DNA of 54,369 bases from a virus (Duplodnaviria > Caudoviricetes). Under the pieces are notes generated by a model. It saw only the letters and a program-made list of their open reading frames with translations, made no database searches and was not told the origin of the DNA. Numbering within the stretch: position 1 is the first letter of the stretch; each line of letters opens with the position of its first letter. The DNA is taken from positions 1 to 54,369 of IMG/VR virus record IMGVR_UViG_3300036820_000024. One strand, 5' to 3'. Positions 146-44,238 of this stretch are shown one piece after another. Position numbers and translations under genes: made by a program.

Positions 146-245
146 TTTGGGGCATTACTCGATTATAGGGCATATTTTCGCTATTTGTGCCGCTATATAT
201 ATCTCGGAAATTTTTGCATATTACTATAACAACAAACTATCTTAA
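1..245 (+). CDS. 3' part of the junction-spanning CxxC membrane protein
   Basis: WGCHKCIAG followed by hydrophobic helices; the ORF-track TTG start at 18 results from the repeat mismatch. Confidence 0.75.
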   Translation, partial: KIGERLERRWFYKPVWGCHKCIAGQLTAWLYLARLIRSNFKLLIYLPGLGHYSIIGHIFAICAAIYISEIFAYYYNNKLS

Positions 246-248
246 TTT

Positions 249-761
249 ATGGAACTAAAAAAAATCAACTTCGACGACCCGCAATTTATTGCGAACGGTA
301 CACACTACCAGGTGCAAGGCTTTTTAAGTATTGAGCGGTATTGTGAGTTTCAAATTTTGGAGAAAGAGTTAGGTTACGGCTTAACCTTTAACGAAATGTA
401 CAAGCATTTGGATACCGCCGAAAAGCTATTAAACAAAACAAATTTTGTCGGTGCCGCCGTTCATATCAATAACATTAAACAGGGTATTTTAAAAGTCCAG
501 GAACGCGAACCCGTTATATTAAAAATTTGTGCCCTGTTTATTAATGCGGACGACGAGGATATCAAGACGATCAACGGGGATATGGTGGATAAAAAAATTA
601 AGGATTGGAAAACGGAGGGCATGGATATGAATAGTTTTTTTCTTGTGGCAGTCAATTCGGTAAATGGCTTTTTAGGCGCTTATCAGAACATTACCCGGAG
701 CATTACCGGGATATTGGAGGGGTCGTCAAAAGTACCAAAGGACGAAAAACCGGCGAATTGA
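249..761 (+). CDS. Tail assembly chaperone (gpG-like)
   Basis: Position before the tape measure; T TTT TTT slippery heptamer at 635-641. Confidence 0.7.
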   Translation: MELKKINFDDPQFIANGTHYQVQGFLSIERYCEFQILEKELGYGLTFNEMYKHLDTAEKLLNKTNFVGAAVHINNIKQGILKVQEREPVILKICALFINADDEDIKTINGDMVDKKIKDWKTEGMDMNSFFLVAVNSVNGFLGAYQNITRSITGILEGSSKVPKDEKPAN

Positions 762-12080: not shown

Positions 12081-12111
12081 TTTATATTATTAAACTTTAA
12101 ATATTTTCAAA

Positions 12112-12987
12112 ATGAGCAACCCAGTATGTCCCGAAAATTGCGCTTATGACTTGCCCGCCGTAAGTTATAACAATTGCGCGCCAAAAGTGCAGCAATCACA
12201 AATCAGGCGGTTATTTGTAGGCAAAGCCAACGCGGCGGCGTTCGCCGATTGGACGCAAGCCGCTGAATGGTTAACCAGGTGTAACCAAAACACCACGACG
12301 GGCGACGATTACATTCGCGTCCTGACAGTAACGGGCGAAAAGCCAGCGCCTAAAAACATTACTAAAGTAATTGACAATGGATTTTTAGCCCAAATCGGCA
12401 AAGATCACACGGTTAATTTTACAACCTACCAGGTAACCGACGACAATTATGAATTTATGCGCGGTTCCGAGTGCGGGACGTTCGTTAAACTCTTTGCTAT
12501 CGAGACAATGGGCGGGGCCTTTTTTGGCACCAACGCCGGGCAACTCGTTTCTAACGTTATGGACTCCGTGTTAACGGGGGGTGATGACGACCTGGAAAAC
12601 CTTACCGGCTCAATGACCTGGAGGAGTAAATTTAGCCTCGAGCGTATCGCATTAAGCCCGATTTTTGAGGTTGATTTTAACCTGACACCGGGCGACGGCG
12701 GCGGGGTCGTTTATGACACTATCCAGTTATTCGACACCGAGGCAAGCATCACAAGTGAGGGTATAACAACAACATTGCCAGGCACAGATCCGGACGCTAA
12801 GTTTGAGTTTAACAGGGTAATTTCAGCAGTCGGCGCGCCTCAAACCATGAACTTAAACGAGGGCGTCGATAACGTTGCAGTTGTTGACTTCCCAGCCGAT
12901 TATCTCGGGGCAACCTGGAGGTTTACGGACGACAGCGGAACCGTTTACCAGGGCGTATTTACAAACGGGGACATTATTATGTCATAA
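12112..12987 (+). CDS. Putative major tail (tube) protein
   Basis: 291 aa, own promoter and terminator, beta-rich; start region shares TTAAACTTTAA with the capsid gene; no other tube candidate. Confidence 0.5.
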   Translation: MSNPVCPENCAYDLPAVSYNNCAPKVQQSQIRRLFVGKANAAAFADWTQAAEWLTRCNQNTTTGDDYIRVLTVTGEKPAPKNITKVIDNGFLAQIGKDHTVNFTTYQVTDDNYEFMRGSECGTFVKLFAIETMGGAFFGTNAGQLVSNVMDSVLTGGDDDLENLTGSMTWRSKFSLERIALSPIFEVDFNLTPGDGGGVVYDTIQLFDTEASITSEGITTTLPGTDPDAKFEFNRVISAVGAPQTMNLNEGVDNVAVVDFPADYLGATWRFTDDSGTVYQGVFTNGDIIMS

Positions 12988-13989: not shown

Positions 13990-14026
13990 AAAAAATGCCC
14001 CGATCAAACAACGGGGCATTTTTTTT
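13990..14026 (+). terminator. Intrinsic terminator
   Basis: AAAAATGCCCCG-loop-CGGGGCATTTTTTTT. Confidence 0.8.
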
Positions 14027-14430: not shown

Positions 14431-14991
14431 ATGAGCAACTTTTTAAAAATCGTTTTTGGGGACGCGCCCCTCAACAATTTTGCCGCGTACATGGTACTGG
14501 CAATAATCGGAATTTTCATTAAATTACTTTTGCACGTTGTGCAGCGTAACCAGGCAAGCCCAAATACGCCGGTTGATTTTTCCATTTGCTTTATGCTTAA
14601 GGATAACGCCATTAGGTTAATGGCTTCGCTATCGTTAAGCCTATTTGTGGTTTTCGCTTGCATACGCTTTACGAGTGAAATTTTACACGTCCAGTTAAGC
14701 CCGTTTGTTGCCCTGGGTATAGGGCTTGCGTCCGATTACCTGGCAGAGCAGCTAAAAAATTTGGCGTCGTCCCGTACGCCTTTTACGGGCGTAGCAACGT
14801 TGTTGACGGATTTAAAACCCGATCAACCAGGCTCGGGTGATCAGCCAGCAGGTCCTGCAGCAATAGACCCCGAGAAACCAGCCATTGACCAAATACAAGT
14901 CGGGCCGATTGCCGAGGTTAAACAAATCGTACAACAAGACGAGACGCCTCCAGCTGGGGATATCAACGGAAACCAAAAACCAACCGTATAA
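14431..14991 (+). CDS. Putative holin (about 3 TM)
   Basis: Three hydrophobic helices plus a polar tail, upstream of the endolysin. Confidence 0.65.
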   Translation: MSNFLKIVFGDAPLNNFAAYMVLAIIGIFIKLLLHVVQRNQASPNTPVDFSICFMLKDNAIRLMASLSLSLFVVFACIRFTSEILHVQLSPFVALGIGLASDYLAEQLKNLASSRTPFTGVATLLTDLKPDQPGSGDQPAGPAAIDPEKPAIDQIQVGPIAEVKQIVQQDETPPAGDINGNQKPTV

Positions 14992-14992
14992 G

Positions 14993-15541
14993 ATGCGGTA
15001 TATTATCGGTACGGCCATAAAAAAACAAACCTCGGGTAAATTGGAACCCGAGGTTTTTGTGCCTATTGTTGGGTATGAGCGTGGTTATGCCATTGGCTCA
15101 CATGGTAACGTTTACAGCATATCTAAACAAATAATAATGCAACCGTTTGTCGATAAGGATGATTATTTAATCATTAAGTTATCAAAACGGGGACACAAAC
15201 GAAACTTTAAAATTTCCAGGCTCGTTGCCTTACACTTTATCTCAAACCCCGAAAACAAAGAGGAGGTTAACCACTTGAAAGGTAAGCGGGATAATTATTA
15301 TAAACATCTTGCCTGGGCGACGCCAAAAGAAAACGTTAACCACGCTTTTGAGCACGGTTTGAATAATAGTAACCATTGCCGACACCGCGTAAAAAGCACT
15401 CACGTTGCTACCGGCGAACAAAAAACATTTGATAGCTTACGCGAGGCAGAAACCATTTTAAACATAAGTCGCGGGTGTGTGTCGTCCGTATTATTGGGTA
15501 AATGCAATCAAACAAAAGGATATAAATTTGAAAAACTATGA
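14993..15541 (+). CDS. NUMOD4-HNH-NUMOD1 homing endonuclease
   Basis: PIVGYE..YAIGSHGNV; RLVALHFI.NP...EVNHLKG..DN....LAW.T..EN..HA; FDSLREA. Confidence 0.88.
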   Translation: MRYIIGTAIKKQTSGKLEPEVFVPIVGYERGYAIGSHGNVYSISKQIIMQPFVDKDDYLIIKLSKRGHKRNFKISRLVALHFISNPENKEEVNHLKGKRDNYYKHLAWATPKENVNHAFEHGLNNSNHCRHRVKSTHVATGEQKTFDSLREAETILNISRGCVSSVLLGKCNQTKGYKFEKL

Positions 15542-16254
15542 AATCAGGAATTGACCTTTTTAACGCCCTGAAGCCACATGTTGGTGAGGCGTATGTAATG
15601 GGTACTTTGGTGCCTAAAAATAATAGCGGTTGGCGGGGGCCATGGGATTGTGCCGAGTTTGCCATTTGGGGCGCTTACCAGGTTGCGGCACAATTGTACG
15701 GTTGTCTTAACGATAACGGCAACCCAGGCAGCGCCGACGCTTATACCGGGTATTTGCAGCGGGACGCCGAAACCCTGGGTATTAAGATAAGTGTTGACCA
15801 GGCAAGCCGTACCCCAGGCGCGTTTATCTTACGCCTGGCGGCAAATGGCGTTTGTGCGCATGTAGTTGTGTCCGATGGAAACGGCGGCACCGTAGAGGCT
15901 CACGGACACGCTGACGGCGTTATTTTCGGTAAGGTAGCGGGGCGTCGCTGGGATTACGGTATTTTGTTGCCGTTCCTGACTTATACCGAGAACCTGATAG
16001 GCCCGGGAACTCAACCCGTAAGCCAGCCAGCAACGCCGGTGTATTACTTGCGGCAACCTATGATGGTCGGGCCGGTCGTGCTCGAGATCGAAAATAAATT
16101 AAAGGCCCTGGGTTATTATCACGGCGCGCTCGATAGTGAGTACGGCGGGGGCCTGTTTTCTGCGGTACGATCTTACCAGGCAAAAGAGGGGTTAAACCCG
16201 GACGGCGAGGTCGGCGAAAAAACAGCCGCCGCCCTGGGTATAAGCCTCGAATAA
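15538..16254 (+). CDS. Endolysin: NlpC/P60 (CHAP-clan) peptidase plus PG_binding_1 domain
   Basis: WDCAEF, AHVVVS, VEAH; C-terminal L.ALGY...DSEYG....AVRSYQ...GL.PDGEVG.KT. Confidence 0.88.
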   Translation: MKSGIDLFNALKPHVGEAYVMGTLVPKNNSGWRGPWDCAEFAIWGAYQVAAQLYGCLNDNGNPGSADAYTGYLQRDAETLGIKISVDQASRTPGAFILRLAANGVCAHVVVSDGNGGTVEAHGHADGVIFGKVAGRRWDYGILLPFLTYTENLIGPGTQPVSQPATPVYYLRQPMMVGPVVLEIENKLKALGYYHGALDSEYGGGLFSAVRSYQAKEGLNPDGEVGEKTAAALGISLE

Positions 16255-16257
16255 TAG

Positions 16258-16265
16258 TATATTTG
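16258..16265 (+). promoter_or_regulatory. Bacteroidota -7 promoter for sRNA1
   Basis: TATATTTG. Confidence 0.65.
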
Positions 16266-16269
16266 TGCC

Positions 16270-16344
16270 GCCCTTGTAGCGAGGGGAAACGTAATGATAG
16301 TTTGTTTTTGGATGCCAGGTATTAACGTACCTGGCATTTTTTTT
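16270..16344 (+). ncRNA. Candidate antisense sRNA1 targeting early-gene start regions
   Basis: Promoter, 5' hairpin, no ORF, strong terminator; segments complementary to several start regions. Confidence 0.62.
16312..16344 (+). terminator. Intrinsic terminator
   Basis: ATGCCAGGTA-ttaacg-TACCTGGCAT followed by a T run. Confidence 0.85.
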
Positions 16345-16351
16345 GATAAAT

Positions 16352-16390
16352 GTTTAAAATAAGTTTTATATATGTTTAATAAAATTTATA
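16352..16390 (+). promoter_or_regulatory. 11-bp-phased GTTTAA-like direct repeats (operator family B)
   Basis: GTTTAAAATAA at 16352; further boxes at 16363 and 16374. Confidence 0.6.
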
Positions 16391-16415
16391 TAATTGTACT
16401 TTAAACAAAAAACGT

Positions 16416-16592
16416 ATGAAAAATTTGTTATTATTTCCTGGATGCTATAACGAGGGTTATACCGCTTGCCAGCAGTTTATGGGCGACGAAAACATGATTA
16501 CCAACCCGTATAAACCCGGCACCGGCGAAGCTAAGGCCTGGGCTAATGGTTGGGCCGAGGCCCTTTGTCGCTTACCTGTTTTTGCTTACTGA
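16416..16592 (+). CDS. Rmf/CrpP-like small protein (58 aa, missing from the ORF track)
   Basis: YNEGY.A...NPY..G.....W..GW signature. Confidence 0.65.
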   Translation: MKNLLLFPGCYNEGYTACQQFMGDENMITNPYKPGTGEAKAWANGWAEALCRLPVFAY

Positions 16593-16798
16593 TGGAAAAG
16601 ATTATTATTGATAGGTATTTGTACAGTTGCAAAAATGGTACAAGTAAAAAGCTAAGTGATCTTTTAAAAGAGGCCGAAAAATCTCCGCCCGAAAAGCACG
16701 AAAACGGCACCGCATACGACGCGTACAACGCCGAGGTTGAAGCGGTTGTGTCCGATAAAAAAGGGGTTTTTATAGATAACCTTTTTTATTCGGTTTAA
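16592..16798 (+). CDS. Hypothetical protein
   Basis: TGATG-coupled start, MEKIIID... Confidence 0.6.
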   Translation: MEKIIIDRYLYSCKNGTSKKLSDLLKEAEKSPPEKHENGTAYDAYNAEVEAVVSDKKGVFIDNLFYSV

Positions 16799-16800
16799 CC

Positions 16801-16938
16801 ATGTATTACATTTTCCTAACAACTTTAACGGAGCATAAATATAACCTCGTCTCGGCGCGTCTTATGGTAACAACCTGGGCGGGGGACGGCGTTTTTAAAT
16901 ATGCCATTTACTCACATTTATTTTTTTCAGCCAACTAA
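16801..16938 (+). CDS. Small hypothetical protein (45 aa)
   Basis: Fills the gap exactly; MYYIFLTT...FFSAN. Confidence 0.45.
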   Translation: MYYIFLTTLTEHKYNLVSARLMVTTWAGDGVFKYAIYSHLFFSAN

Positions 16939-16940
16939 AC

Positions 16941-18425
16941 ATGATCAACCGTAACCAATTCAACATTAATTTTAAAACCGAAAGTCACGACCCCGCCGAT
17001 ATCATAACGTGCGGTGAATTTTTTGCAGGGGGAGGCGGTTGGACGACCGGCATAAGTAGTTTACCGGGCATAAAAACAAAATGGATACTTAACCACGATA
17101 GCGTTGCACTAAAAACAAACGCCCTCAACCATAAGGGCGTCCGCGTGTATTGGAGCGACATTTTCACCCAGGACGAGCACGAACTCGAGCCGGTCGATTA
17201 TGTACACGCCTCGACCGAGTGCGACGAGCATAGCAACGCCAACGCTGGCAAGGGTAAGAAAACAGGCAGCTACGTAATGGGCTGGGAATTGTTTAGGTAT
17301 CTCAAATATTTAAACGCCTCGGTTATCAGTATCGAGAACGTCCCCGAGTTTAAAAAATGGGCACCATTGGATGATCACGGCAACCCCGATAAAACAAAGG
17401 TCGGCCAGGAATTTGAACGGTGGAAACGCGCAATAATGGATTTGGGTTATGAGTATAAAGAAAGCATAAGGAACGCCGCCGACGATGGGTTGCCAACCAG
17501 GCGCGTACGTTTTTTTTGTTTCTTTTACAAACCAGGTATAGAAATTACCTTCCCGCCGTTTACTCATTCTGCCAACGGCAAAGGCGGTTTACATAAACAT
17601 AAAAGTTGCCGCCCTCACATTGATACGGACGATCACGGTATTAGCATTTTCGGGCGCGAACATAACCCCGCTATACGCAAGTGCCAAAGAAAAAAACTTT
17701 GCAAAAACAGCATTACGCGTATTGTCGGCGGTATCAAAAAGCTACACCCCGAGTTTTTGCAATTCATTGCCCAATATCACGCGGGCAAAAACCCGGAGCG
17801 TTTTCAAAGTCTCGAGTTACCGATCAATACGATTGATACCAGCAACCGGCACCAATTGATCACGATTGAAAAATTACAGTTTATTGCCGATCACTGCCAT
17901 ACGGATAATTTTAATTTGCTAAACGAGCCGCTTAACCCCATATTAACCAGGCAAACAAAAACGCTCACGACGGTTGAGTTTTTTATTACCCAATATTACG
18001 GCGGTTCAATCCAGTTTAATGAGTTGGGCGACCCGATCAACACGATACCGTGCCGCGACATGCACCAATTGGTACGCCTCGAAAAATACCAGTTTATCAC
18101 AAAGTATTTTAATAATTATGGCAGTCCGGAGTTAAGTATCCAAAGCCTGGACGACCCGTTATCAACCGTGTTAACGACCAATAAACACCAACTCATTACC
18201 TTACTGGACGACTTCGACATAAAGGCCCGTTTCTTAAGGCCCGACGAGTTGGCGGCGTGTAGTACGTTCCCTGAAAATTATTTTAGTCCCCCAGGCTTAA
18301 AATTAAGCCATAAGGACGCGGTACGTTTGATCGGTAACGCGGTGCCACCAATGTGGGCGGAGCGCCTGGTAGGGCCTAACGTAAAAAGCATGAAGGACTA
18401 TAAATTAAACAGACTTTCGGCGTAA
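16941..18425 (+). CDS. DNA (cytosine-5) methyltransferase, phage type with internal repeats
   Basis: FFAGGGG, HASTEC (motif IV variant), IENVPEF, TRRVR, IGNAVPP. Confidence 0.9.
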   Translation: MINRNQFNINFKTESHDPADIITCGEFFAGGGGWTTGISSLPGIKTKWILNHDSVALKTNALNHKGVRVYWSDIFTQDEHELEPVDYVHASTECDEHSNANAGKGKKTGSYVMGWELFRYLKYLNASVISIENVPEFKKWAPLDDHGNPDKTKVGQEFERWKRAIMDLGYEYKESIRNAADDGLPTRRVRFFCFFYKPGIEITFPPFTHSANGKGGLHKHKSCRPHIDTDDHGISIFGREHNPAIRKCQRKKLCKNSITRIVGGIKKLHPEFLQFIAQYHAGKNPERFQSLELPINTIDTSNRHQLITIEKLQFIADHCHTDNFNLLNEPLNPILTRQTKTLTTVEFFITQYYGGSIQFNELGDPINTIPCRDMHQLVRLEKYQFITKYFNNYGSPELSIQSLDDPLSTVLTTNKHQLITLLDDFDIKARFLRPDELAACSTFPENYFSPPGLKLSHKDAVRLIGNAVPPMWAERLVGPNVKSMKDYKLNRLSA

Positions 18426-18434
18426 ATTTGCCGT

Positions 18435-18491
18435 ATGGGTAAAAAAGGAATGGCCTCCGGAACGGTCAAGGGCGGCACCGTAAAGTGCTAA
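18435..18491 (+). CDS. Candidate leaderless 18-aa peptide MGKKGMASGTVKGGTVKC
   Basis: TAAATTTG promoter at 18423-18430 puts the predicted transcription start at the ATG; terminator directly after. Confidence 0.45.
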   Translation: MGKKGMASGTVKGGTVKC

Positions 18492-18502
18492 CGCGCCCGG
18501 TT

Positions 18503-18531
18503 AAAGGCTTCGCGAATTGCGGAGCCTTTTT
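18503..18531 (+). terminator. Intrinsic terminator
   Basis: AAAGGCTTCGC-gaatt-GCGGAGCCTTTTT. Confidence 0.8.
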
Positions 18532-18537
18532 CATTTA

Positions 18538-18602
18538 ACAAATAAAGTTGAAAATATTTGTTAAAATGTTTTGAATTGACAAATAAAAGCGCGTATATTT
18601 GT
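18538..18602 (+). promoter_or_regulatory. Early promoter with two ACAAATA-N10-TATTTGT operators (family A)
   Basis: Palindromes at 18538-18561 and 18579-18602; TATATTTG at 18594. Confidence 0.75.
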
Positions 18603-18622
18603 CTTAACAAAAAACAAACGAA

Positions 18623-18820
18623 ATGGAAACCGTACAAATCAAAATCAAAAAATCAAAAAACGTATTTGCCTGGGGCAATCAAAACGTTGGTAAAACCGTA
18701 ACCGCTACAATCGAAAACGACCGTTACGAGGTCGATTTTTTAGCCAACCCGCAAATTGAATGTACACGCAATTGGTTGAGTGGTTTTGTAGAATTTAAAG
18801 ACGCTGACCTCGTTAAATAA
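18623..18820 (+). CDS. Hypothetical early protein
   Basis: First gene after the promoter. Confidence 0.7.
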   Translation: METVQIKIKKSKNVFAWGNQNVGKTVTATIENDRYEVDFLANPQIECTRNWLSGFVEFKDADLVK

Positions 18821-18826
18821 TTAGCT

Positions 18827-19171
18827 ATGAGAAAGCCAAAGTTTACATATAAAAAAACCCTCGAGCGGCAAGCAGCCGCCGAGGTTATAGAAAAAAAACG
18901 CCAACAAATGATCACCGAGACAATTATGGGTTACGGTCGTGAGCATTGGTTAAAAAGTGCAAAGCAGGGTTTTCCTCCCTTGCACGGGGAAAACCTGGAC
19001 GCAATGACAACCCAGGAGTTAACCGATCACATTAGTAATTACGATATTGATTTTCGCACAATGTCATCACACGGCAAGCCATTTAATAAACTAACGGGTA
19101 AGTTTGTCGAGCAACCGTTACAGACTTACGACCAGCTTTACGCCTATTGTGAGACGTTAAAAGCAAAATAA
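18827..19171 (+). CDS. Hypothetical protein
   Basis: Tightly packed ORF. Confidence 0.7.
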   Translation: MRKPKFTYKKTLERQAAAEVIEKKRQQMITETIMGYGREHWLKSAKQGFPPLHGENLDAMTTQELTDHISNYDIDFRTMSSHGKPFNKLTGKFVEQPLQTYDQLYAYCETLKAK

Positions 19172-19216
19172 AATACAGGGGCCGAAAGGCCCTTTGCCAG
19201 TAAAAAACAAATCATT

Positions 19217-19375
19217 ATGCAACTCACATTTAAACAGTATGACATAGCCAAAACCTTAAGGGCTAATTATGATTATATCGAAAAGCTGGCGGCGATCAAA
19301 TTTATAAAATCCATTTTCGGCACGACTGCCAGCCTTAAGGATATAATTATAGCTTATAATTCACTTGAATATTAA
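19217..19375 (+). CDS. Small hypothetical protein (52 aa, missing from the ORF track)
   Basis: AAACAAATCATTATG start context; MQLTFKQYDIAKTLR...; fills the gap. Confidence 0.6.
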   Translation: MQLTFKQYDIAKTLRANYDYIEKLAAIKFIKSIFGTTASLKDIIIAYNSLEY

Positions 19376-19381
19376 AAAACC

Positions 19382-20119
19382 ATGAACCCGAAAGCGCTAA
19401 AATATTTCATTGAAAACCGGGCTTTGTTCGTCATTAATCACAGCGGCGGCAAGGATAGCCAGGCAATGACGGCTTATTTACGATCAATCATACCCGCCGA
19501 GTTATTGGTGGTTATACACGCCCATTTGCCCGGCGTCGAGTGGGAGGGCGTTCGTGAGCACATACAGGACACAACCCAGGGATTGCCATATTACGAGGTA
19601 AGGGCCGTTAAAACCTTTATGGATATGGTTTTGCACAGGGGCAAATGGCCGGGTGCCGCTCAACGTCAATGCACAAGCGATTTAAAACGCGACCCAATAG
19701 ATAAGCAAATTCGGGCAATCGCAAAAGAGCGCGGTTGTAAACTAATTATTTCGTGTATGGGATTACGTGCCCAGGAAAGCACAAGCCGGGCAAAACAACC
19801 CCTGTTTAAAATGAGCAAACGCAACTCGAGGGCCGGGCGCAAATGGTATAATTTTAACCCTATTCATAGCTGGGATATAAACGACGTTTGGGCCGCGATC
19901 ACAGCAGCGGGCCAAAAAAGACATTGGGCATACGACGCCGGTATGAGCCGGTTAAGTTGCTGTTTTTGTATCCTGGCTAACAAAGCCGATTTAGCGACCG
20001 CCAAAAGATTGCGGCCCGAACTTTTCGCCAAATACGTTGCGGTTGAGAAACAAATAAATCACAGCTTTATTTCACCCCAGCGCGGGCACCCTGTTAAATT
20101 TTTGGACGAGATAATTTAA
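19382..20119 (+). CDS. PAPS reductase family (PP-loop) protein
   Basis: SGGKDS, CT..LK..P, GLRAQES..RA, PI..W...VW, RLSCCFC. Confidence 0.88.
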   Translation: MNPKALKYFIENRALFVINHSGGKDSQAMTAYLRSIIPAELLVVIHAHLPGVEWEGVREHIQDTTQGLPYYEVRAVKTFMDMVLHRGKWPGAAQRQCTSDLKRDPIDKQIRAIAKERGCKLIISCMGLRAQESTSRAKQPLFKMSKRNSRAGRKWYNFNPIHSWDINDVWAAITAAGQKRHWAYDAGMSRLSCCFCILANKADLATAKRLRPELFAKYVAVEKQINHSFISPQRGHPVKFLDEII

Positions 20120-20136
20120 TTTTCTACCTTAGCGGA

Positions 20137-20188
20137 AGTTTAATAATAGGGGCATTTTGGAGGCCTGGGCGATTGTCCAGGCTTTTTT
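20137..20188 (+). ncRNA. Candidate antisense sRNA2 targeting structural-gene start regions
   Basis: TACCTTAG promoter variant at 20125; no ORF; terminator at 20163-20188; 13-nt perfect complement to 12085-12097. Confidence 0.5.
20163..20188 (+). terminator. Intrinsic terminator
   Basis: GCCTGGGC-gatt-GTCCAGGC-TTTTTT. Confidence 0.8.
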
Positions 20189-20198
20189 ATTTCAAAAA

Positions 20199-20243
20199 GT
20201 TTCGATATAAGTTTAATATTTGTTTTATTTGTGTTTAAAATAA
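20199..20243 (+). promoter_or_regulatory. Operator family B array upstream of the HTH gene
   Basis: GTTT boxes at 20199, 20211, 20222 and 20233; GTTTAAAATAA at 20233. Confidence 0.6.
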
Positions 20244-20254
20244 ACATTTATAAA

Positions 20255-20524
20255 ATGGGTAGAAACCGAACCGCCGCGTATGAGCGGACAATATCAGCCG
20301 AATTGCTGGCCGTATGGAATAAATACCGACGCAATCACGACGGCGAAACGATTAGCCAAAAATTAGGTTACTCGAGGCCCGTAATAGACAGGGCGTTAAA
20401 CTATGGCTATGTAAAAACCCAAAACCTTACCGAGCAAATCAGCAAATTTTTTTCTGACCGCTTAACCCAGGAACGGGAAACCGCCGCCACTATGGAAAGC
20501 GAATTAAACAACAATCAATCTTAA
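20255..20524 (+). CDS. Small HTH DNA-binding protein
   Basis: GETISQKLGYSRPVIDRALN helix-turn-helix; ATG at 20255. Confidence 0.65.
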   Translation: MGRNRTAAYERTISAELLAVWNKYRRNHDGETISQKLGYSRPVIDRALNYGYVKTQNLTEQISKFFSDRLTQERETAATMESELNNNQS

Positions 20525-24677: not shown

Positions 24678-25027
24678 AAAAAAATAACGACGACACCCCT
24701 ACAACCTTTTTAAATTGGTTTTATCAGCAACGGGAGCCACAATTCAAGATTTTGGATAACGAAACGGTTGATACCTGGGGGGATAAGATAGCCGACCAGG
24801 CACGTAAAGGCGCGGCCCTGGGTAAGGATTGCGGTAAAATGTGCAAGGATTGTGCGTTTAACAACAATCAACCGCACACAATAGATTATTTGGAAAGTGT
24901 GGACGGGGCCGTGCTGATGCTCGTAAGCGAAGGGCGGTTTAATTGCCATACCCCGGACGGCGGGGACGCTCATAAGCCTTGCGCCGGTTTTCTTTATGCC
25001 AAAGAACATTTAAACTCAATCGAATGA
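24674..25027 (+). CDS. Cys/His metal-binding hypothetical protein
   Basis: CKDCAF...FNCH...PCAG. Confidence 0.65.
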   Translation: MKKNNDDTPTTFLNWFYQQREPQFKILDNETVDTWGDKIADQARKGAALGKDCGKMCKDCAFNNNQPHTIDYLESVDGAVLMLVSEGRFNCHTPDGGDAHKPCAGFLYAKEHLNSIE

Positions 25028-25452: not shown

Positions 25453-25494
25453 ATTTAATATGAGTTTAAAAAAAGTTTAAAATAAATATATTTG
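25453..25494 (+). promoter_or_regulatory. Operator family B array plus TATATTTG promoter
   Basis: Boxes at 25453, 25464 and 25475; TATATTTG at 25487. Confidence 0.6.
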
Positions 25495-25520
25495 TCACTT
25501 AATTAATCGCTACAATCATT

Positions 25521-26954
25521 ATGAACGAAAACAAACCTGGGGACACCAACGCCCCCGCTATGCCGGGCGACGACCTTACGATCACCCCGCACGTCGAACT
25601 AATTACGGTCGATCAACAAATTAAAAACGAGGTTGCAAAAATTGACGTATCAAAACAGGCGGTTGCCTCTTTTGTGCGAAAATTTGGCGCTCTTAAAATT
25701 GCGGACGTTAACGACGTCGCCGGTTATAAAGCCGTTGACGAGGCCCGAAAATTGGTTAAGAAAAAAGCTATTGCGGTCGAGGGAAAAACAAAGCAACTTA
25801 ACGAGGATTATTTAAAAATAATCAACGGAGTAAGGCTTTACGGTAAATCATTATCCGAACCGCTGCGCAAATTGGAGGACGAACTGGACGCAAAATTAAA
25901 AGTCATTGACGACGAAAAGGTCCAAATTGAAACCGAGCGCCTCGAGGCCGAGACAAAAAAAGCAAACCAGCGCGTCGAGGATTTGATCGCCGCCGGGATT
26001 GCGTTTAATGGCAGATATTACGCCATAGGCGACACAATCAGCGTCGATATTATTACCCTTAAGGCAATGACGGACGACGAGTTTACGGCGCTGCAAAATT
26101 CCGTAATCCTGGAAAAAACCCGCATTGACGACCGGGAAACCGAGCGCCTCGAGGCCGAGCGAAAGCAAAAGGAAGCCGACGAACTATTGCGACAACAAAA
26201 CGAGGACAAACAAAAGGAACTCGACGAGCAACAAAAAAAGATTGATCAACAGCTGGCAGAAATTGCCGAGTTTAAACTCCAGCAAAAAAAGATCGAAACA
26301 AACCGCCGGGCTGGCTTATTGTTGGAACTCGGTTTATTATCCCTGGCAACAACCAGCGGGGCCGTTGTGTACCGACTGGACACCAAAAGCGGGGCAGTTG
26401 AGGTATCGCTGGCAGACGTTGAGGACTTAAGCCCGGACGACTGGCAAAAGAGGCTCGAGGGCGTACAAAAATTATCCCGTGAGATCACGGCAAAAGAGTT
26501 GACCAGGATAAACGAGGAAACCGCCGCCGCCAACCAATACGACTCCCGTGTCGCCCAGCTTAAGGCGCTCGAATTGGTGCCGATGCCAGGGGCATACGGT
26601 ATTTATCACGACGTTACGGAAGCCCTGTTTAAGATCGACGAGACCGAAATAAAAACCTTTGACGCCGACCAATGGGTAGCGGCTTTAAAGCGGCTTAAAA
26701 CCTGGAAACAAAACCAGGACGCCGAAGGCATTAAGATCACAAAGCAACTCGAAACCCTGGTAGAAACCAAACGTAAAAACGGGCAATCTGATTTTACCAA
26801 CATAAGCGAGTTTAATAGTGCTATGTTGTTGAGCCTGGGCGAAGCGCCAAAACTTAAGCGGGCCGATATGCAAGCCCTTATGGACACGTTTATTAAAAAG
26901 GTAAAAGGGGCGTTATCCGATCTAACACTCGAGGCCGAAAAACTAAGTAAATAA
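25521..26954 (+). CDS. Long coiled-coil protein
   Basis: 477 aa, E/K/Q-rich helical sequence. Confidence 0.75.
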   Translation: MNENKPGDTNAPAMPGDDLTITPHVELITVDQQIKNEVAKIDVSKQAVASFVRKFGALKIADVNDVAGYKAVDEARKLVKKKAIAVEGKTKQLNEDYLKIINGVRLYGKSLSEPLRKLEDELDAKLKVIDDEKVQIETERLEAETKKANQRVEDLIAAGIAFNGRYYAIGDTISVDIITLKAMTDDEFTALQNSVILEKTRIDDRETERLEAERKQKEADELLRQQNEDKQKELDEQQKKIDQQLAEIAEFKLQQKKIETNRRAGLLLELGLLSLATTSGAVVYRLDTKSGAVEVSLADVEDLSPDDWQKRLEGVQKLSREITAKELTRINEETAAANQYDSRVAQLKALELVPMPGAYGIYHDVTEALFKIDETEIKTFDADQWVAALKRLKTWKQNQDAEGIKITKQLETLVETKRKNGQSDFTNISEFNSAMLLSLGEAPKLKRADMQALMDTFIKKVKGALSDLTLEAEKLSK

Positions 26955-31845: not shown

Positions 31846-31858
31846 TTGCATATATAAT

Positions 31859-31891
31859 TTATTTTAAACATATTTGAAACTTATATCAAAC
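31859..31891 (-). promoter_or_regulatory. Operator family B array, inverted orientation
   Basis: TTATTTTAAAC at 31859-31869 is the reverse complement of GTTTAAAATAA; further boxes 11 and 22 bp away. Confidence 0.55.
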
Positions 31892-31895
31892 GTTA

Positions 31896-36141: not shown

Positions 36142-36162
36142 CAAAAACAATAAATAATCATT

Positions 36163-37803
36163 ATGAAAACAAACGACACGATCAAGCTAAGGCAGCTAAT
36201 CGAACAATTAAACAGTATTAACCATTTAAAAAACCAAATTCCAGTCCAGGAATTTACAGAGCGGGCATTAATGAAATTGCACGACATAGAAAACCGGCCC
36301 GTTGATGCTTTACACGACATTGACGCCCTGGCAGCAATCGGCATACACATAAGCAATAAAGCTATTGGGCCGGTCGTGATGCCCGATTATAGCCGCAAGC
36401 TGGGGGAGGAAAGTAAAGAACTATTAGCAGCCATTGCCGGGGGTAACCTGGTTGAGATCACGGACGAAATCGCCGACGTCCTGTTTGTCCTTAGCAAAAT
36501 AGCCGGGTACTATAATCTGCCATTGTACGGGCTTTTACACGCTGCCATTAACAAGACGTTTAACCGTATGGCTAACGCTGAATTTAAGCGCCGCCCGCAA
36601 GATACAACCCAAATGACTCCAGGCGGGGATATCAATACAGCGCCCGCAAGCCGGGGAGGCGGTAAATCGTTCCACGTGGAACAATCGGACAAAAAATTAT
36701 TTACCGTAAGTGTTGGAACGCCCGAGTATGATTTATTAAAGCAATTGGAAGAAGCTGGCAACATTGGTAAAGTTGTCGAGTTGGACGAGGTTGTTAAAAC
36801 GCTCGATTGCAACCATTGTGTTTTTATAAGCGGTGTAATACGAAAAGGTGGAGACGGAAAAACACGGCGAAATGTCACAATTTCCACCGCTGGGGTTTGT
36901 GTACTGGCTGAAGCCGAGCAACGAGGCGCGGCTGCAGGAACTAAGATAAACCCCGTTTTAGACGAGGATGTGCCGGTCGGAAAATGGTTTGAAGAGCGAA
37001 CCGTCCTCCATATTGTCCAGGCCTTTTGTATGGAGAAAATGGATTGCCAAACCCCGGAAATTTTAAAGAGTAATTTATGTGCCTGGTTTTACCCCAACCG
37101 CTGGGAAAGTTTAATACACGTAAGCCATAGAGACGCATACGACGGCAAGCCGTCATTTTTGGACGATCTGACGGACGCCATTAACCGGCATAACCTGGAA
37201 AGCGGCAACGACACCCCGGACTTCATGTTGGCGCAATACCTGGCTAATTGCCTGGACAATTATACCGAGATTGTAAACAACCGCGATCAATGGGAAGCCG
37301 TCGGCGCAAAATCGGGCGAAAGCACACGGTTAAACGGGGTAACGTCCGAGCCTTTCCCGGCATGGTTCCCAACGTTGCTGGCGTTAATACTCGAGATCGA
37401 AAAGGATTATAACGACGATCACACCGAGACGCTGGGAAAGCTGGGTTATCTATACCGGCAAAACGGCGGCTTATTCGTAACGGAGCGAGGCCGCGCCGTA
37501 TTTGAGTACATAGACAGCATACGCCCAAAGAACGACGCCCAGGGCAAAGCGGCGGCGGCATTGATCGAAAAAACATATTTCGGCCCGCGATCACACCCAA
37601 AACTCGGGACTGATAACGTTTTCCACGAACCGATAGACCCGGGCGCGTTGTCATTGTTGCAAGCGCTCAACCGCGAACCGTTGGACTATACGGGCGGTAA
37701 AGCAATTGCAAATCTTTTAAGCATGGGATTTGCCGACATAAAAGAAAAAACCGCATACATTACGCATACAGGTCGAAATTTTTTGGCCGAAAACCATAAA
37801 TAG
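36163..37803 (+). CDS. Multidomain protein with a MazG-like NTP pyrophosphatase domain
   Basis: KLGEESKEL..A......I.DEIADV. Confidence 0.75.
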   Translation: MKTNDTIKLRQLIEQLNSINHLKNQIPVQEFTERALMKLHDIENRPVDALHDIDALAAIGIHISNKAIGPVVMPDYSRKLGEESKELLAAIAGGNLVEITDEIADVLFVLSKIAGYYNLPLYGLLHAAINKTFNRMANAEFKRRPQDTTQMTPGGDINTAPASRGGGKSFHVEQSDKKLFTVSVGTPEYDLLKQLEEAGNIGKVVELDEVVKTLDCNHCVFISGVIRKGGDGKTRRNVTISTAGVCVLAEAEQRGAAAGTKINPVLDEDVPVGKWFEERTVLHIVQAFCMEKMDCQTPEILKSNLCAWFYPNRWESLIHVSHRDAYDGKPSFLDDLTDAINRHNLESGNDTPDFMLAQYLANCLDNYTEIVNNRDQWEAVGAKSGESTRLNGVTSEPFPAWFPTLLALILEIEKDYNDDHTETLGKLGYLYRQNGGLFVTERGRAVFEYIDSIRPKNDAQGKAAAALIEKTYFGPRSHPKLGTDNVFHEPIDPGALSLLQALNREPLDYTGGKAIANLLSMGFADIKEKTAYITHTGRNFLAENHK

Positions 37804-41760: not shown

Positions 41761-41824
41761 ACAAATAATTTACACTTTTTTTGTTTTTTATTTGGATATA
41801 ACAAATAAAAGCGCGTATATTTGT
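41761..41824 (+). promoter_or_regulatory. Early promoter with two family A operators
   Basis: Palindromes at 41761-41784 and 41801-41824; 35 bp identical to 18579-18613; TATATTTG at 41816. Confidence 0.78.
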
Positions 41825-41847
41825 CTTAACAAAAACAAACAAACAAA

Positions 41848-42276
41848 ATGGTAAAAGAACTTTCAACCCCAGCACAAGCCGCCAAAGAGATAAAAGCAGC
41901 TTTAAAACTTGCCTTCCCTGGTATCGTTTTCAATGTTAAATCCGATAGTTTCGCCGGTGGAGACGCCGTAAGGATTAAATATTTTGACGGTGTAAAGCAC
42001 GACAAAGTGAGCGAAATAGTTGCACCGTATCAATATGGCAGCTTCGACGGTATGAACGACCTTTATAACTATGACAATAAAAACGCTGAATTGCCGCAAG
42101 TAAAATACGTAAACGTTAGTCGGTCAATGAGTGACGCCGTACGCGATCAACTGTTAAACAAAATCATTACCGAGTATGCCGGTTGCGAAAACTTAACTTA
42201 TGACGATTACGCCCCCGAGCACGGCGCGTATGTTAATACCCTGGTTGGACGCTTGTTTGCGGCAACCGAGTTTTAA
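41848..42276 (+). CDS. LPD29 (large polyvalent protein-associated domain 29) protein
   Basis: AK.I...LK..FPG..F.V.S..F.GG....I...DG...V......Q.G.FDGM.D.Y. Confidence 0.75.
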   Translation: MVKELSTPAQAAKEIKAALKLAFPGIVFNVKSDSFAGGDAVRIKYFDGVKHDKVSEIVAPYQYGSFDGMNDLYNYDNKNAELPQVKYVNVSRSMSDAVRDQLLNKIITEYAGCENLTYDDYAPEHGAYVNTLVGRLFAATEF

Positions 42277-42351
42277 ACCACGCCAACCCGCACAATATCG
42301 AGGCCCTTAATTGGGCCTTTTGCAGTAAAAAACAAATCAAATCGCTACAAA

Positions 42352-42915
42352 ATGAACTTAGAACTAAAAAACATTAAGTTTTTCGAGGCTGGGAGCCAGG
42401 AAACAAATTGCTTTACCGCCGACCTGTATGTGGACGGTAATAAAATCGCTTACGTCAACAATGACGGGCACGGCGGTTGCACCAATTACAGCACGTACAA
42501 AGGCGACAAACGCCCCGTATTGCTGGCAGCGGAGTTATACTGCAAAGGTTTGGCCCCGCACGTGTACGCGCCCGTTGCCGGTATGGACGACGAGTTTAGC
42601 GTACCTATGACGCTCGAGGTTATGATTGATAGCCTTTTTGAGGCGTGGTTAAAGGATTACACCGAGCGCAAGTTTTTGCAAACGATCAAACGCAAGTTTG
42701 TTACCTCGGTTGTGATCGGCAATACCAAAGAGTTTATTTACATATCCTGGAAAAACGTAACCATTGCGCAAATGCTGGCAGTACCAAACGGTCGTGCCGC
42801 TATCCTTAAGGCGCTCACGAAAGCCGTTGCCGACGGTAAGGTTAACGCAACCAACCGGGTTTTAAACGACAATATCCCCGCTGATTTGCTGGCAGAAGCC
42901 GGTGCAAATATTTAA
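42352..42915 (+). CDS. Conserved-looking early phage protein
   Basis: SQET.CF.A.LYVDG......NDGHGG. Confidence 0.75.
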   Translation: MNLELKNIKFFEAGSQETNCFTADLYVDGNKIAYVNNDGHGGCTNYSTYKGDKRPVLLAAELYCKGLAPHVYAPVAGMDDEFSVPMTLEVMIDSLFEAWLKDYTERKFLQTIKRKFVTSVVIGNTKEFIYISWKNVTIAQMLAVPNGRAAILKALTKAVADGKVNATNRVLNDNIPADLLAEAGANI

Positions 42916-43770: not shown

Positions 43771-43790
43771 TTCAAACAAATTTAATCATT

Positions 43791-43916
43791 ATGGAAAAAC
43801 CAAAATTTACTATCCTGGACGCTTATTTTGAAAAGCGTTTAAGAGACAACCGGCACCTTTGTTTGGTAGCTGGCTGCATTGTGTTAATCGTTTACGCCTT
43901 AACGTTTCTTTTTTAA
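43791..43916 (+). CDS. 41-aa single-TM peptide (missing from the ORF track)
   Basis: MEKPKFTILDAYFEKRLRDNRHLCLVAGCIVLIVYALTFLF; first gene after the promoter. Confidence 0.6.
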   Translation: MEKPKFTILDAYFEKRLRDNRHLCLVAGCIVLIVYALTFLF

Positions 43917-43926
43917 TCGCTACAAA

Positions 43927-44238
43927 ATGAAAACAATTGCTATCACTATCGTAAGGACTTACGGCGAACGCCGGGAGGTACTGGAAAACGTTACCTGTTT
44001 AGGTGACGCCCTGTTATTGCTTAAGGAAAAACACGCCGACGTTAAAATAAGCGACATAACCGCCGTCGAGACCGTCGCGGACGAGTTACCGACGCCTTAT
44101 TTTACCGAAAAGGATTTTGAGCGGCATAGACGCGCTAAAACAATCGACGACTATATCGCCGATGCTGTCCGCTGTTTAGGCCTCGACCCAAACCGCCGTA
44201 TTTTCGAGCGTGACACCTATAACCCCGATCACTTATAA
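43927..44238 (+). CDS. Hypothetical protein
   Basis: AATCGCTACAAAATG start context. Confidence 0.7.
   Translation: MKTIAITIVRTYGERREVLENVTCLGDALLLLKEKHADVKISDITAVETVADELPTPYFTEKDFERHRRAKTIDDYIADAVRCLGLDPNRRIFERDTYNPDHL

What the first reader, a model, noticed from the sequence alone, without database searches (positions are those of the whole stretch)
16258..16344. Candidate multi-target antisense sRNA complementary to the start regions of the phage's own early genes
Seen: a TATATTTG promoter, about 75 nt with no ORF, and a strong terminator. It carries three segments: TTGTAGCGA (16274-82, in a 5' hairpin), CGTAATGAT (16290-98) and GTTTGTTTTTG (16300-10). Their complements sit at start codons. 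AATCGCTACAA precedes ATGs 25521, 42352 and 43927. ATCATTATG (one G:U at the AUG) spans ATGs 19217, 25521, 36163 and 43791. (C)AAAAACAAAC precedes 41848 and 18623, and AACAAACTATC precedes 249. For 19217, 36163 and 43791, two segments pair colinearly (17-18 bp with a small bulge or loop); for 42352 all three segments contribute colinearly (the middle one only 4 bp). Six targets are in the three operator-controlled early operons. Established: P4 CI and P1 C4 RNAs give RNA-based immunity. Inference: this RNA silences early genes in a phage with no visible CI repressor or integrase. Caveats: the A-rich seed is low complexity, the terminator could simply end the lysis operon, and TCGCTACAA also occurs once inside a CDS (7106).
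Basis: partly seen in the sequence, partly recalled or inferred. Interest (0 to 1): 0.9.

Follow-up and report, generated by a model that had tools for sequence, protein, structure and literature searches.

The report
Candidate anti-start-site small RNA in phage
A short promoter-to-terminator unit between the late and early genes of a soil phage probably makes a small RNA that can pair with the start sites of several of the phage's own genes, but no expression data exist and the idea that it gives immunity is not supported.

Summary
The window is a whole 54-kb soil phage genome with all genes on the + strand and Bacteroidota-type signals (TAnnTTTG boxes, no Shine-Dalgarno). The element 16258-16347 has a consensus -7 box 4 nt after the endolysin stop, about 45 nt, and a 13-bp terminator.

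Evidence on chance is mixed:
- Plain duplex energies are no better than shuffles.
- Segment 3 is low complexity.
- Segments 1 and 2 hit two repeated, complex start-region motifs. On a complexity-weighted score the element is the top locus of the genome, reached by 1 of 5000 dinucleotide shuffles.

The only fairly close relative fetched (G001) has the same box at the same offset and a terminator. Its inner sequence is unrelated but is again enriched for complements of its own leaders (25 of 5000 shuffles). More distant relatives carry orphan box-to-terminator units at the same junction.

A sister element (window 20149-20193) covaries with the start codon region of one late gene in 5 of 5 genomes.

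My reading is a trans-acting anti-start-site RNA, which may also act as the 3' end of the late lysis mRNA (confidence 0.42). P4/P1-type immunity is not supported. No RNA data exist, and closer relatives could not be fetched.

The parts
16258..16265 (+). TATATTTG, a Bacteroidota-type -7 promoter box, 4 nt after the endolysin stop codon
   Evidence: The exact 8-mer occurs 5 times on the + strand, all intergenic; the other 4 lie 11-34 nt upstream of an ATG. G001 has TACTTTTG at the same offset. No TTTG at about -33 (my reading).
16271..16285 (+). 5' hairpin CCCUUG-UAG-CGAGGG that holds segment 1
   Evidence: The 5' 45 nt fold no better than shuffles (z = -0.5).
16274..16282 (+). Segment 1, TTGTAGCGA, the only reverse complement of TCGCTACAA in the genome
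16290..16298 (+). Segment 2, CGTAATGAT, which pairs with AUCAUUAUG (one G:U at the start codon)
16300..16310 (+). Segment 3, GTTTGTTTTTG, a low-complexity complement of A-rich leaders
16310..16347 (+). Intrinsic terminator: 13-bp stem, 4-nt loop, T run
16345..16388 (+). AT-rich repeat after the terminator, the probable regulatory region of the operon that starts at 16416
   Evidence: D5, I1. Copies at 20204-20247 and 25446-25489, and an inverted copy at 31851-31902.
25505..25523 (+). Leader and start of gene 25521: AATCGCTACAATCATTATG (sites for segment 1 and segment 2)
   Evidence: Its G001 orthologue 22347 is also a top match of G001's element.
42340..42354 (+). AATCGCTACAAAATG, start region of gene 42352
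   Evidence: -18.8 kcal/mol.
43915..43929 (+). AATCGCTACAAAATG, start region of gene 43927
   Evidence: -22.8 kcal/mol, the best of 77.
19202..19219 (+). AAAAAACAAATCATTATG, start region of gene 19217 (segments 2 and 3, colinear)
   Evidence: -17.6.
36142..36165 (+). Start region of gene 36163 (segments 2 and 3 with an interior loop)
   Evidence: -16.5.
43773..43793 (+). Start region of the 41-codon ORF 43791 (segments 2 and 3)
   Evidence: -17.4.
41830..41850 (+). CAAAAACAAAC leader of gene 41848 (segment 3 only)
18610..18625 (+). AAAAACAAAC leader of gene 18623 (segment 3 only)
231..251 (+). AACAAACTATC leader of gene 249
20149..20193 (+). Sister element B: GGGGCATTTTGGAGG followed by a terminator conserved across the clade, in the 3' UTR of gene 19382-20119
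12104..12114 (+). TTTTCAAAATG, start region of late gene 12112, the covarying partner of element B

Best explanation
Region 16258-16347 is a small non-coding transcription unit at the junction between the last late (lysis) gene and the first early-type operon.

Inferred steps:
- A host-type TAnnTTTG promoter starts an RNA of about 75 nt, which ends at a strong intrinsic terminator.
- The same sequence also forms the 3' end of any late transcript that reaches this terminator.
- The weakly structured body carries sequences antisense to start regions of the phage's own SD-less mRNAs.
- Segment 1 targets the AAUCGCUACAA family: genes 25521, 42352 and 43927.
- Segment 2 targets the AUCAUUAUG family: 19217, 25521, 36163 and 43791. 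The U/G-rich segment 3 extends some of these duplexes.
- Pairing across positions -20 to +3 would block translation initiation, as shown for the Bacteroides sRNA GibS.

Shown: the sequence architecture, its conservation in relatives, and the statistical excess of anti-start-region words.

Inferred: transcription, pairing in vivo, the direction of the effect (repression), and its timing.
For: 1. The promoter box.
- TATATTTG is the exact box of the phage's four other strongest promoter-like sites. All 5 copies on the + strand are intergenic.
- 10 of the 28 + strand TAnnTTTG sites fall in the 4645 nt of non-coding DNA (8.5% of the genome).
- 8 of those 10 lie 11-39 nt before an ATG. The two exceptions, 16258 and 18423, are each followed by a terminator.

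2. Conservation in G001.
- G001 (portal 63% identical, syntenic) has TAA-TAG-TACTTTTG at the same offset after its endolysin, then 65 nt and a terminator. The sequence in between is not alignable.

3. The same junction in more distant relatives.
- G003, G004 and G007 have TAnnTTTG 1-9 nt after a stop codon, about 40 nt, and then a terminator.
- G013 has the same layout with a one-mismatch box, TATATTTA, directly after the stop.

4. Word statistics in the window.
- TCGCTACAA occurs 4 times, 3 of them in start regions. Its reverse complement occurs once, in this element.
- The 5' 34 nt have complements of 9 bp or more (at most one G:U) in 7 of 77 start regions. Of 20000 mononucleotide shuffles, 0.045% reach that.
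- On the complexity-weighted score the element is the top locus genome-wide at k=8 and the second at k=9.
- 1 of 5000 (k=8) and 3 of 5000 (k=9) dinucleotide shuffles reach the observed score.

5. Replication in G001 with different sequence.
- The reverse complements of GTCAAACAA (4 copies, 3 of them in leaders), of CAAACAAAAAG (leader of the orthologue of 25521) and of AATGAGTA (two start codons) each occur once, all inside G001's element.
- 25 of 5000 (k=8) and 52 of 5000 (k=9) shuffles reach its score.

6. The sister element B.
- It pairs with the start codon region of the 12112 orthologue in 5 of 5 genomes, with different sequences.
- The cognate assignment is the best of 120 permutations by contiguous score and is reached by 2 of 120 by energy.

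7. The mechanism is established in the presumed host phylum.
- GibS pairs across start codons, and Bacteroidetes mRNAs lack SD sequences (passages of PMC7366714).
Against: - No RNA data: no RNA run holds this DNA, so transcription is untested.
- Duplex energies against 77 start regions are no better than 1000 dinucleotide shuffles. For every summary statistic, 81-96% of shuffles do at least as well.
- Segment 3 is low complexity: 14 loci with T/G runs match 6 or more start regions at k=9.
- 2.9% of all + strand windows reach 7 start regions when G:U pairs are allowed.
- The reverse complement of the element is only an average start-region look-alike, ranking 362 of 54347 by PWM.
- Segment 1 sits in a 6-bp stem in the predicted fold.
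- There is no -33 TTTG.
- G001 has neither TCGCTACAA nor ATCATTATG, so no pair-by-pair compensatory change can be shown for this element.
- Only one orthologous gene pair (25521 / 22347) is a top match in both phages, and through different segments.
- G001's score is unremarkable in genome ranking at k=9 (about 32 loci score as high).
- In relative L268 the only exact box overlaps the B seed, so there the seed can only sit in read-through RNA.
- The repeated leaders may simply be duplicated cassettes: 19175-19216 and 42300-42351 share a hairpin plus GTAAAAAACAAATCA.
Confidence: 0.42

Rival explanations
1. It is only the 3' untranslated end and terminator of the late lysis operon. The TATATTTG after the stop codon and the complementarity to start regions have no trans function. 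They would be by-products of A/T-rich leaders, duplicated leader cassettes and a U/G-rich pre-terminator tract.
For: - The terminator sits 56 nt after the endolysin stop, like other operon-end terminators.
- The energy test is negative.
- Segment 3 is low complexity.
- The PWM rank is unremarkable.
- There is no -33 element.
- The inner sequence is not conserved in G001.
Against: - The box is kept at the same offset in G001 while its surroundings diverged.
- Orphan box-to-terminator units recur at this junction in several more distant relatives whose upstream genes differ.
- All 5 exact TATATTTG copies are intergenic.
- The weighted anti-start-region score is top of the genome.
- That score is reached by 1 of 5000 shuffles in the window and 25 of 5000 in G001.
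Confidence: 0.28
2. The RNA is an immunity factor of the P4 CI / P1 c4 kind that keeps early operons silent in a carrier or lysogenic state, in place of a protein repressor.
For: - Six proposed targets lie downstream of the three promoters that carry operator-like repeats: 18594, 41816 and 43762.
- No integrase or repressor domain was found in the 48 ORFs scanned with Pfam or the 7 more scanned with PHROGs only.
- Some distant relatives are labelled proviruses.
Against: - No match to the Rfam C4 family, even at E up to 10.
- The targets are dispersed over several operons rather than sitting in a leader downstream of the RNA gene.
- The palindromic repeats TTAACAAATA...TATTTGTTAA at the promoters imply a DNA-binding protein.
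- About 22 ORFs were not scanned, so the absence of a repressor is not shown.
- Nothing indicates that this phage is temperate.
Confidence: 0.08
3. TCGCTACAA / TTGTAGCGA is a protein-binding site read on DNA in either orientation. It would lie just downstream of promoters, at 16274 and 25507, 9-12 nt after a TATATTTG box. Under this model the RNA complementarity is incidental.
For: At both 16258 and 25487 the motif lies 9-12 nt after the box. The motif is absent from G001, as expected for a phage-specific regulator site.
Against: The copies at 42342 and 43917 have no box nearby and abut start codons. The model does not explain segment 2, or the parallel finding in G001 with unrelated words.
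Confidence: 0.1
4. It is a leader or attenuator. A short ORF (ATG at 16294 in the window; an 11-codon ORF in G001 that ends in the terminator loop) is translated across the terminator. Translation would then control read-through into the operon that starts at 16416.
For: Both phages have an ATG about 15-25 nt before the terminator, in a frame that runs into it (my reading).
Against: - The peptides are not conserved, and no A-rich start context precedes them.
- G003 and G004 have no such ATG.
- The downstream operon has its own repeat-type regulatory region and, in G001, a canonical box after the terminator.
Confidence: 0.05

Closest known systems
GibS and other trans-encoded sRNAs of Bacteroides (PMC7366714, passages read)
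   Same: TAnnTTTG promoter, intrinsic terminator, AT-rich and weakly structured body, extended pairing across the start codon of SD-less mRNAs, and several targets.
   Different: GibS is chromosomal, conserved in sequence and experimentally shown. This element is phage-borne, has no sequence similarity to it, targets the phage's own genes, and has no expression or binding data.
c4 RNA of phages P1/P7 and CI RNA of P4 (review PMC12197685, passages; the P4 details are recalled)
   Same: A phage RNA of about 77 nt with more than one short antisense segment that blocks translation of phage genes.
   Different: There is no match to the Rfam C4 model. c4 and CI are processed from the same transcript that carries their targets and act on one downstream leader in temperate phages (recalled). 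Here the targets are dispersed and the lifestyle is unknown.
StxS, the short PR'-tR' transcript of Stx phages (PMC7547250, abstract read)
   Same: A promoter followed almost at once by a terminator. The short RNA is proposed to act in trans, including on phage genes.
   Different: StxS is a by-product of Q antitermination upstream of late genes and binds Hfq. This unit lies after the late genes and before an early-type operon that has its own regulatory region. No antiterminator link is seen.
3'UTR-derived sRNAs that share the terminator of an upstream mRNA (for example CisR acting on CTX phage; PMC13250501, search listing only)
   Same: The element shares its terminator with the endolysin mRNA. 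Sister element B in this window has no promoter box and can only be a 3' UTR.
   Different: Processing is unknown. Here an internal promoter box sits directly after the stop codon.

Membership tests
Trans-acting base-pairing sRNA (Bacteroidota type) | Own promoter of the TAnnTTTG type | tested here: met
   An exact TATATTTG is present and is kept as TACTTTTG at the same offset in G001. This is sequence evidence only, and there is no -33 TTTG.
Trans-acting base-pairing sRNA (Bacteroidota type) | Intrinsic terminator and no protein-coding potential | tested here: met
   13-bp stem plus T run. No ORF of 30 aa or more on the + strand. An unconserved ATG frame of about 22 codons exists (my reading).
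Trans-acting base-pairing sRNA (Bacteroidota type) | A discrete transcript is detected | not testable with these tools
   No RNA run holds the stretch. The laid contigs are DNA.
Trans-acting base-pairing sRNA (Bacteroidota type) | Seed complementarity to targets beyond chance | tested here: inconclusive
   Positive by the weighted k-mer score and against composition-matched shuffles. Negative by duplex energy against shuffles.
Trans-acting base-pairing sRNA (Bacteroidota type) | Seed is single-stranded and conserved or covarying among relatives | tested here: inconclusive
   Segment 1 is in a stem and segments 2-3 are weakly paired. The seeds are not conserved in G001. G001's own element is enriched for its own leaders. 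Strict covariation is shown only for sister element B.
C4 / CI immunity antisense RNAs (Rfam C4) | Match to the family's covariance model | tested here: not met
   No family reaches its gathering score in the whole window. C4 does not appear even at E up to 10 in 16150-20300.
C4 / CI immunity antisense RNAs (Rfam C4) | Targets lie in the leader of the operon that also encodes the RNA (recalled definition) | tested here: not met
   The proposed targets lie 2.3-27.7 kb away in at least four transcription units.
C4 / CI immunity antisense RNAs (Rfam C4) | Temperate phage in which the RNA confers superinfection immunity | not testable with these tools
   No integrase or repressor domain in the 55 ORFs scanned. 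About 22 ORFs were not scanned, and the host is unknown.
Terminated leader RNA of an antitermination switch (lambda 6S / StxS type) | A promoter followed at once by a terminator | tested here: met
   The box at 16258 and the stem from 16310.
Terminated leader RNA of an antitermination switch (lambda 6S / StxS type) | Lies directly upstream of the late operon and depends on a Q-type antiterminator | tested here: not met
   The unit follows the lysis gene and precedes an operon of small proteins and a methylase. That operon has its own repeat-type regulatory region. No antiterminator family appeared among the scanned ORFs.

The most novel reading that the evidence does not exclude
This clade of Bacteroidota phages may time its gene expression partly through junction-encoded antisense RNAs that mask start codons of SD-less mRNAs.

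Element B sits at the 3' end of an early-type operon, or has its own promoter in relatives. It would hold back a late structural gene (the 12112 orthologue, and also 13995).

Element A has its own promoter and also forms the 3' end of the late lysis transcript. It would shut down a set of early and middle genes through two repeated leader motifs.

Together they would form a reciprocal RNA switch between early and late programmes, with seeds and leaders co-evolving in each phage.
Probability: 0.15. Interest if true: 0.75.

Novelty: new member of a known kind. Interest (0 to 1): 0.5.

Why it matters
A 2025 review of phage small RNAs does not mention Bacteroidetes or Flavobacteria at all (0 occurrences of either stem in PMC12197685). 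My four searches listed no paper describing a small RNA encoded by a phage of this phylum. This is a library search, not proof of absence.

If the element works as proposed, it would show how phages of SD-less hosts control translation: by masking the start codon and the A-rich leader. It would also give a positional rule for finding such RNAs in metagenomic phages, namely an orphan box-to-terminator unit at the late/early junction.

The covariation found for the sister element makes the idea directly testable by comparative genomics, once the closer relatives are fetched.

Tried and rejected
DNA searches for the region
- DNA searches of 15500-17500 in the phage collection found nothing, in either near or distant mode.
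- An exact 30-nt pattern from the element found nothing in viral contigs.

Searches through neighbouring proteins
- Endolysin-based search of viral contigs gave 3 loci, none syntenic.
- Endolysin-based search of metagenome contigs gave 80 loci. I examined 76 and dropped L081, L084, L089 and L101, whose matches run into a contig end.
- 0 of the 76 have TAnnTTTG within 60 nt after the stop, and their GC is 0.41-0.70, so they are other genomic contexts.
- Methylase-based search gave 15 loci that share little beyond the methylase: blastn matched only the methylase, and tblastx found a few scattered mosaic hits.
- Two genome-contig scans with portal queries found nothing.

Searches aimed at sister element B
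- A terminator-pattern scan returned 120 loci. Only 3 belong to the clade: L156 = G004, L159 = G003 and L211 = G013.
- Scans with the 12112 and 20255 orthologue alignments gave no further genome holding both partners.
- L267 and L268 come from different contigs and resemble G003.

RNA and read data
- No RNA holder was listed.
- Read laying showed only contigs identical to the window and no variant letters.

Other analyses
- Rfam gave nothing at gathering thresholds, and only hits far below them at E up to 10.
- A PWM test of whether the element's reverse complement looks like a start region gave rank 362 of 54347, which is not exceptional.
- The GC-skew profile is uninformative.
- A search in G001 for complements of its hairpin apex showed no relation to start regions.
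- Comparing the targets of the window's element and G001's element across 31 reciprocal-best orthologue pairs gave only one shared top target.
- I rejected the idea that the box at 16258 drives the operon at 16416. The terminator is strong, and that operon has its own repeat-type regulatory region.
- Structure, complex and atlas tools were not used because the question concerns RNA.
- Supplements of papers were not opened.
Full report
**What the window is**

The window is the whole assembly, one contig of 54369 bases. Its ends repeat: 1-145 equals 54225-54369 at 99% identity (D2). It is therefore a complete, circularly closed or terminally redundant phage genome.

All sizeable ORFs lie on the + strand. 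The genes found include:
- a portal and a large terminase;
- an endolysin with a peptidoglycan-binding domain at 15538-16254;
- several DNA methylases and a RecE-like exonuclease.

The DNA comes from soil metagenomes.

Start codons are preceded by A/T-rich sequence without a Shine-Dalgarno motif. TAnnTTTG boxes are concentrated in intergenic DNA: 10 of 28 + strand sites fall in the 8.5% of the genome that is non-coding. These are the signals of Bacteroidota (passages of PMC7366714). One portal relative is labelled as a Flavisolibacter MAG.

**The observation**

- TATATTTG starts 4 nt after the endolysin stop.
- A 13-bp terminator with a T run follows 52 nt later.

Three corrections apply:
- In the predicted fold, segment 1 is mostly in the stem of a 6-bp hairpin. 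The 5' 45 nt are no more structured than shuffles.
- An unconserved ATG frame of about 22 codons starts at 16294 (my reading).
- In the 25521 leader the sites for segments 1 and 2 are in the wrong order for a single colinear duplex (my reading).

The colinear duplexes claimed for 19217, 36163, 43791 and 42352 are reproduced at -16.5 to -18.8 kcal/mol. The best of all 77 start regions is 43927 at -22.8.

**Is it more than chance?**

RNAduplex energies of 16266-16311 against 77 start regions are no better than 1000 dinucleotide shuffles. For every summary statistic, 81-96% of shuffles do at least as well.

Counting exact complementary words puts the element in the top 0.1% of + strand windows at k=9. 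But 14 loci with T/G runs match 6 or more start regions, so segment 3 is non-specific.

What is special is complementarity to two complex motifs that are repeated in start regions.
- TCGCTACAA occurs 4 times on the + strand, 3 of them directly before start codons. Its reverse complement occurs once, in this element.
- ATCATTATG occurs 4 times, always at a start codon. It is matched with one G:U pair.

The 5' 34 nt reach 7 start regions with 9 bp or more, against 0.045% of 20000 composition-matched shuffles.

I also used a score that weights each complementary word by how over-represented it is in start regions. By that score the element is the top locus of the genome at k=8, the second at k=9 and the fifth at k=10. 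1 of 5000 (k=8) and 3 of 5000 (k=9) dinucleotide shuffles reach it.

A PWM of start regions does not single out the reverse complement of the element (rank 362 of 54347).

**Relatives**

No close relative exists in the phage collection or in viral contigs at the DNA level.

Through the portal I found G001, a 52423-bp contig that is syntenic over the whole genome, with 50-65% protein identity. More distant syntenic relatives are G003, G004, G005, G006, G007 and G013.

In G001 the endolysin stop is followed by the same TAA-TAG-TAnnTTTG arrangement at the same offset, then 65 nt and a terminator. The sequence in between cannot be aligned, and G001 lacks both window motifs.

G003, G004 and G007 have TAnnTTTG 1-9 nt after a stop codon, about 40 nt, and then a terminator, at the same late/early junction. 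Their upstream genes differ. G007 has three such units in tandem. G013 has the one-mismatch box TATATTTA in the same position.

In the window, 8 of the 10 intergenic boxes lie 11-39 nt before an ATG. The two exceptions are this one and 18423. Both are followed by terminators.

**Replication in G001**

G001's element is unrelated in sequence, yet it again holds the only genomic reverse complements of words typical of G001's own leaders:
- GTCAAACAA (4 copies, 3 in leaders or start regions);
- CAAACAAAAAG (the leader of 22347, the orthologue of window gene 25521);
- AATGAGTA (two start codons).

Its weighted score is the fifth locus genome-wide at k=8, but unremarkable at k=9. 25 of 5000 (k=8) and 52 of 5000 (k=9) shuffles reach it. 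Among 31 reciprocal-best orthologue pairs, only 25521 / 22347 is a top match in both phages.

**A sister element with real covariation**

The unit in G003, G004, G007 and G013 ends in a conserved terminator (AGCCTGGG...CCCAGGCTTTTTTATT). The homologue of that terminator in the window is at 20160-20193, in the 3' UTR of gene 19382-20119 and without a box.

The 10-15 nt before this terminator always contain CAT. They pair with the start codon region of the orthologue of late gene 12112. In sequence order (element B versus start region):
- window: CATTTTGGA versus TTCAAAATG;
- G001: TCATACTG versus CAGTATGA;
- G003: TTTGGCATAA versus TTATGCCAAA;
- G004: TGGCATAGCT versus AGCTATGCCA;
- G013: TTGGCATAACT versus AGTTATGCCAA.

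Within each genome the orthologue ranks 2 of 77, 5 of 76, 2 of 65 and 1 of 61 among start regions.

In a cross-genome matrix the cognate assignment is the best of 120 permutations by contiguous pairing and is reached by 2 of 120 by energy. The cognate partner is best in 4 of 5 rows and 5 of 5 columns. G003, G004 and G013 are similar to each other, so most of the signal comes from the window and G001.

This supports the view that the clade uses pre-terminator sequences to mask start codons, which raises the prior for the element under study. One caution: in relative L268 the only exact box overlaps the seed, so there the seed can only sit in read-through RNA.

**Context**

Terminator A (16310-16347), terminator B (20160-20193) and the end of gene 25024-25452 are each followed by a copy of the same AT-rich repeat (16345-16388, 20204-20247, 25446-25489). 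An inverted copy lies at 31851-31902.

The operon that starts at 16416 therefore has its own regulatory region, and the box at 16258 is not needed for it.

Element A and element B occupy equivalent places. The relatives that lack the genes between them (16416-20119) have a single unit. One reading, which is inference, is that a gene cassette was inserted into an ancestral unit. That would have left the promoter side with A and the old seed and terminator with B.

**Mechanism and rivals**

My best reading is a small RNA that masks start regions of a subset of phage genes. It may be made from its own promoter, as the 3' end of late transcripts, or both. Confidence is 0.42.

The main rival is a plain 3' UTR and terminator with incidental complementarity (0.28). 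Three less likely rivals are:
- a DNA site for a protein (0.10);
- a short-ORF attenuator (0.05).

The immunity idea fails the tests that could be run:
- there is no Rfam C4 match;
- the targets are dispersed;
- palindromic operator-like repeats lie at the three promoters concerned (D1/D4).

**Comparison with what is known**

It works like GibS of Bacteroides. Its architecture resembles short terminated phage transcripts such as StxS and 3'UTR-derived sRNAs. It is not a member of any Rfam family.

The 2025 review of phage sRNAs does not mention Bacteroidetes or Flavobacteria at all. Four library searches listed no paper describing a small RNA encoded by a phage of this phylum.

**Limits**

- No RNA data exist.
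- The read laying showed no variants.
- Gene starts come from a crude ATG-first caller. A few start regions in the test sets are therefore wrong, for example 39815 and 53963.

Noticed in passing
window 20149-20193 with 12104-12114 and 13992-14001: Element B is GGGGCATTTTGGAGG plus a terminator conserved across the clade, in the 3' UTR of gene 19382-20119. It pairs with the start region of late gene 12112. Its best match in the window is the start of gene 13995 (AAAATGCCCC, 10 bp). The pairing with the 12112 orthologue covaries in 5 of 5 genomes.
   Followed up: yes
window 18423-18536: A third orphan unit. TAAATTTG begins with the TAA stop codon of the C5 methylase gene. An 11-bp terminator follows 81 nt later at 18504-18528. 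Its U tract, UUUUUCAUUU, is complementary to AAAUGAAAAA-type starts.
   Followed up: partly
window 16345-16388, 20204-20247, 25446-25489; inverted copy at 31851-31902: A family of AT-rich repeats with AAGTTT / GTTTAAAATAA words, placed directly upstream of three operons and once inverted. Similar AAAAGTTTC repeats stand before the 20255 orthologue in relatives. They may be regulator binding sites or an origin.
   Followed up: partly
window 18535-18613, 41791-41835, 43696-43781: Operator-like repeats that include the palindrome TTAACAAATA...TATTTGTTAA around three TAnnTTTG promoters. They suggest a dimeric DNA-binding regulator (D1, D3, D4).
   Followed up: no
window 1-145 and 54225-54369: A 145-nt direct repeat at the two ends (99% identical). 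The genome is closed, or terminally redundant, at about 54224 bp (D2).
   Followed up: no
window 16416-16592: The first gene after the element encodes a 58-aa protein with a sub-threshold match to ribosome modulation factor (Pfam RMF, E = 2.3e-5, 24.8 bits against a cut-off of 27.9).
   Followed up: no
window 18613-19191: Contigs of the probable source run contain a form that skips 577 nt between two A-rich leaders. A loose end at 18548 continues into the sequence of the 43757 promoter region. This points to recombination between the repeated leader and operator cassettes.
   Followed up: no
window 19175-19216 and 42300-42351: Two intergenic regions share a GC hairpin followed by GTAAAAAACAAATCA. 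Leaders appear to have spread as cassettes.
   Followed up: no
window 12112, 27313, 50061 start regions: TAAACTTTAA recurs 10-20 nt before three start codons, including that of the probable major capsid gene at 50061. It resembles the T7 gene 10 epsilon translational enhancer (recalled, not tested).
   Followed up: no
window 16941-18425, 32150-32836, 33884-34576, 34573-35409, 19382-20119, 14885-15541: Four DNA methyltransferase genes (one C5, two N6/N4, one D12 class), a PAPS-reductase-like gene, and a NUMOD/HmuI-like homing endonuclease gene just before the endolysin.
   Followed up: no
G007 (L133, reverse strand), rc coordinates 3325-3620: Three box-to-terminator units in tandem before the 20255 orthologue. 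This may be an array of small RNA genes.
   Followed up: partly
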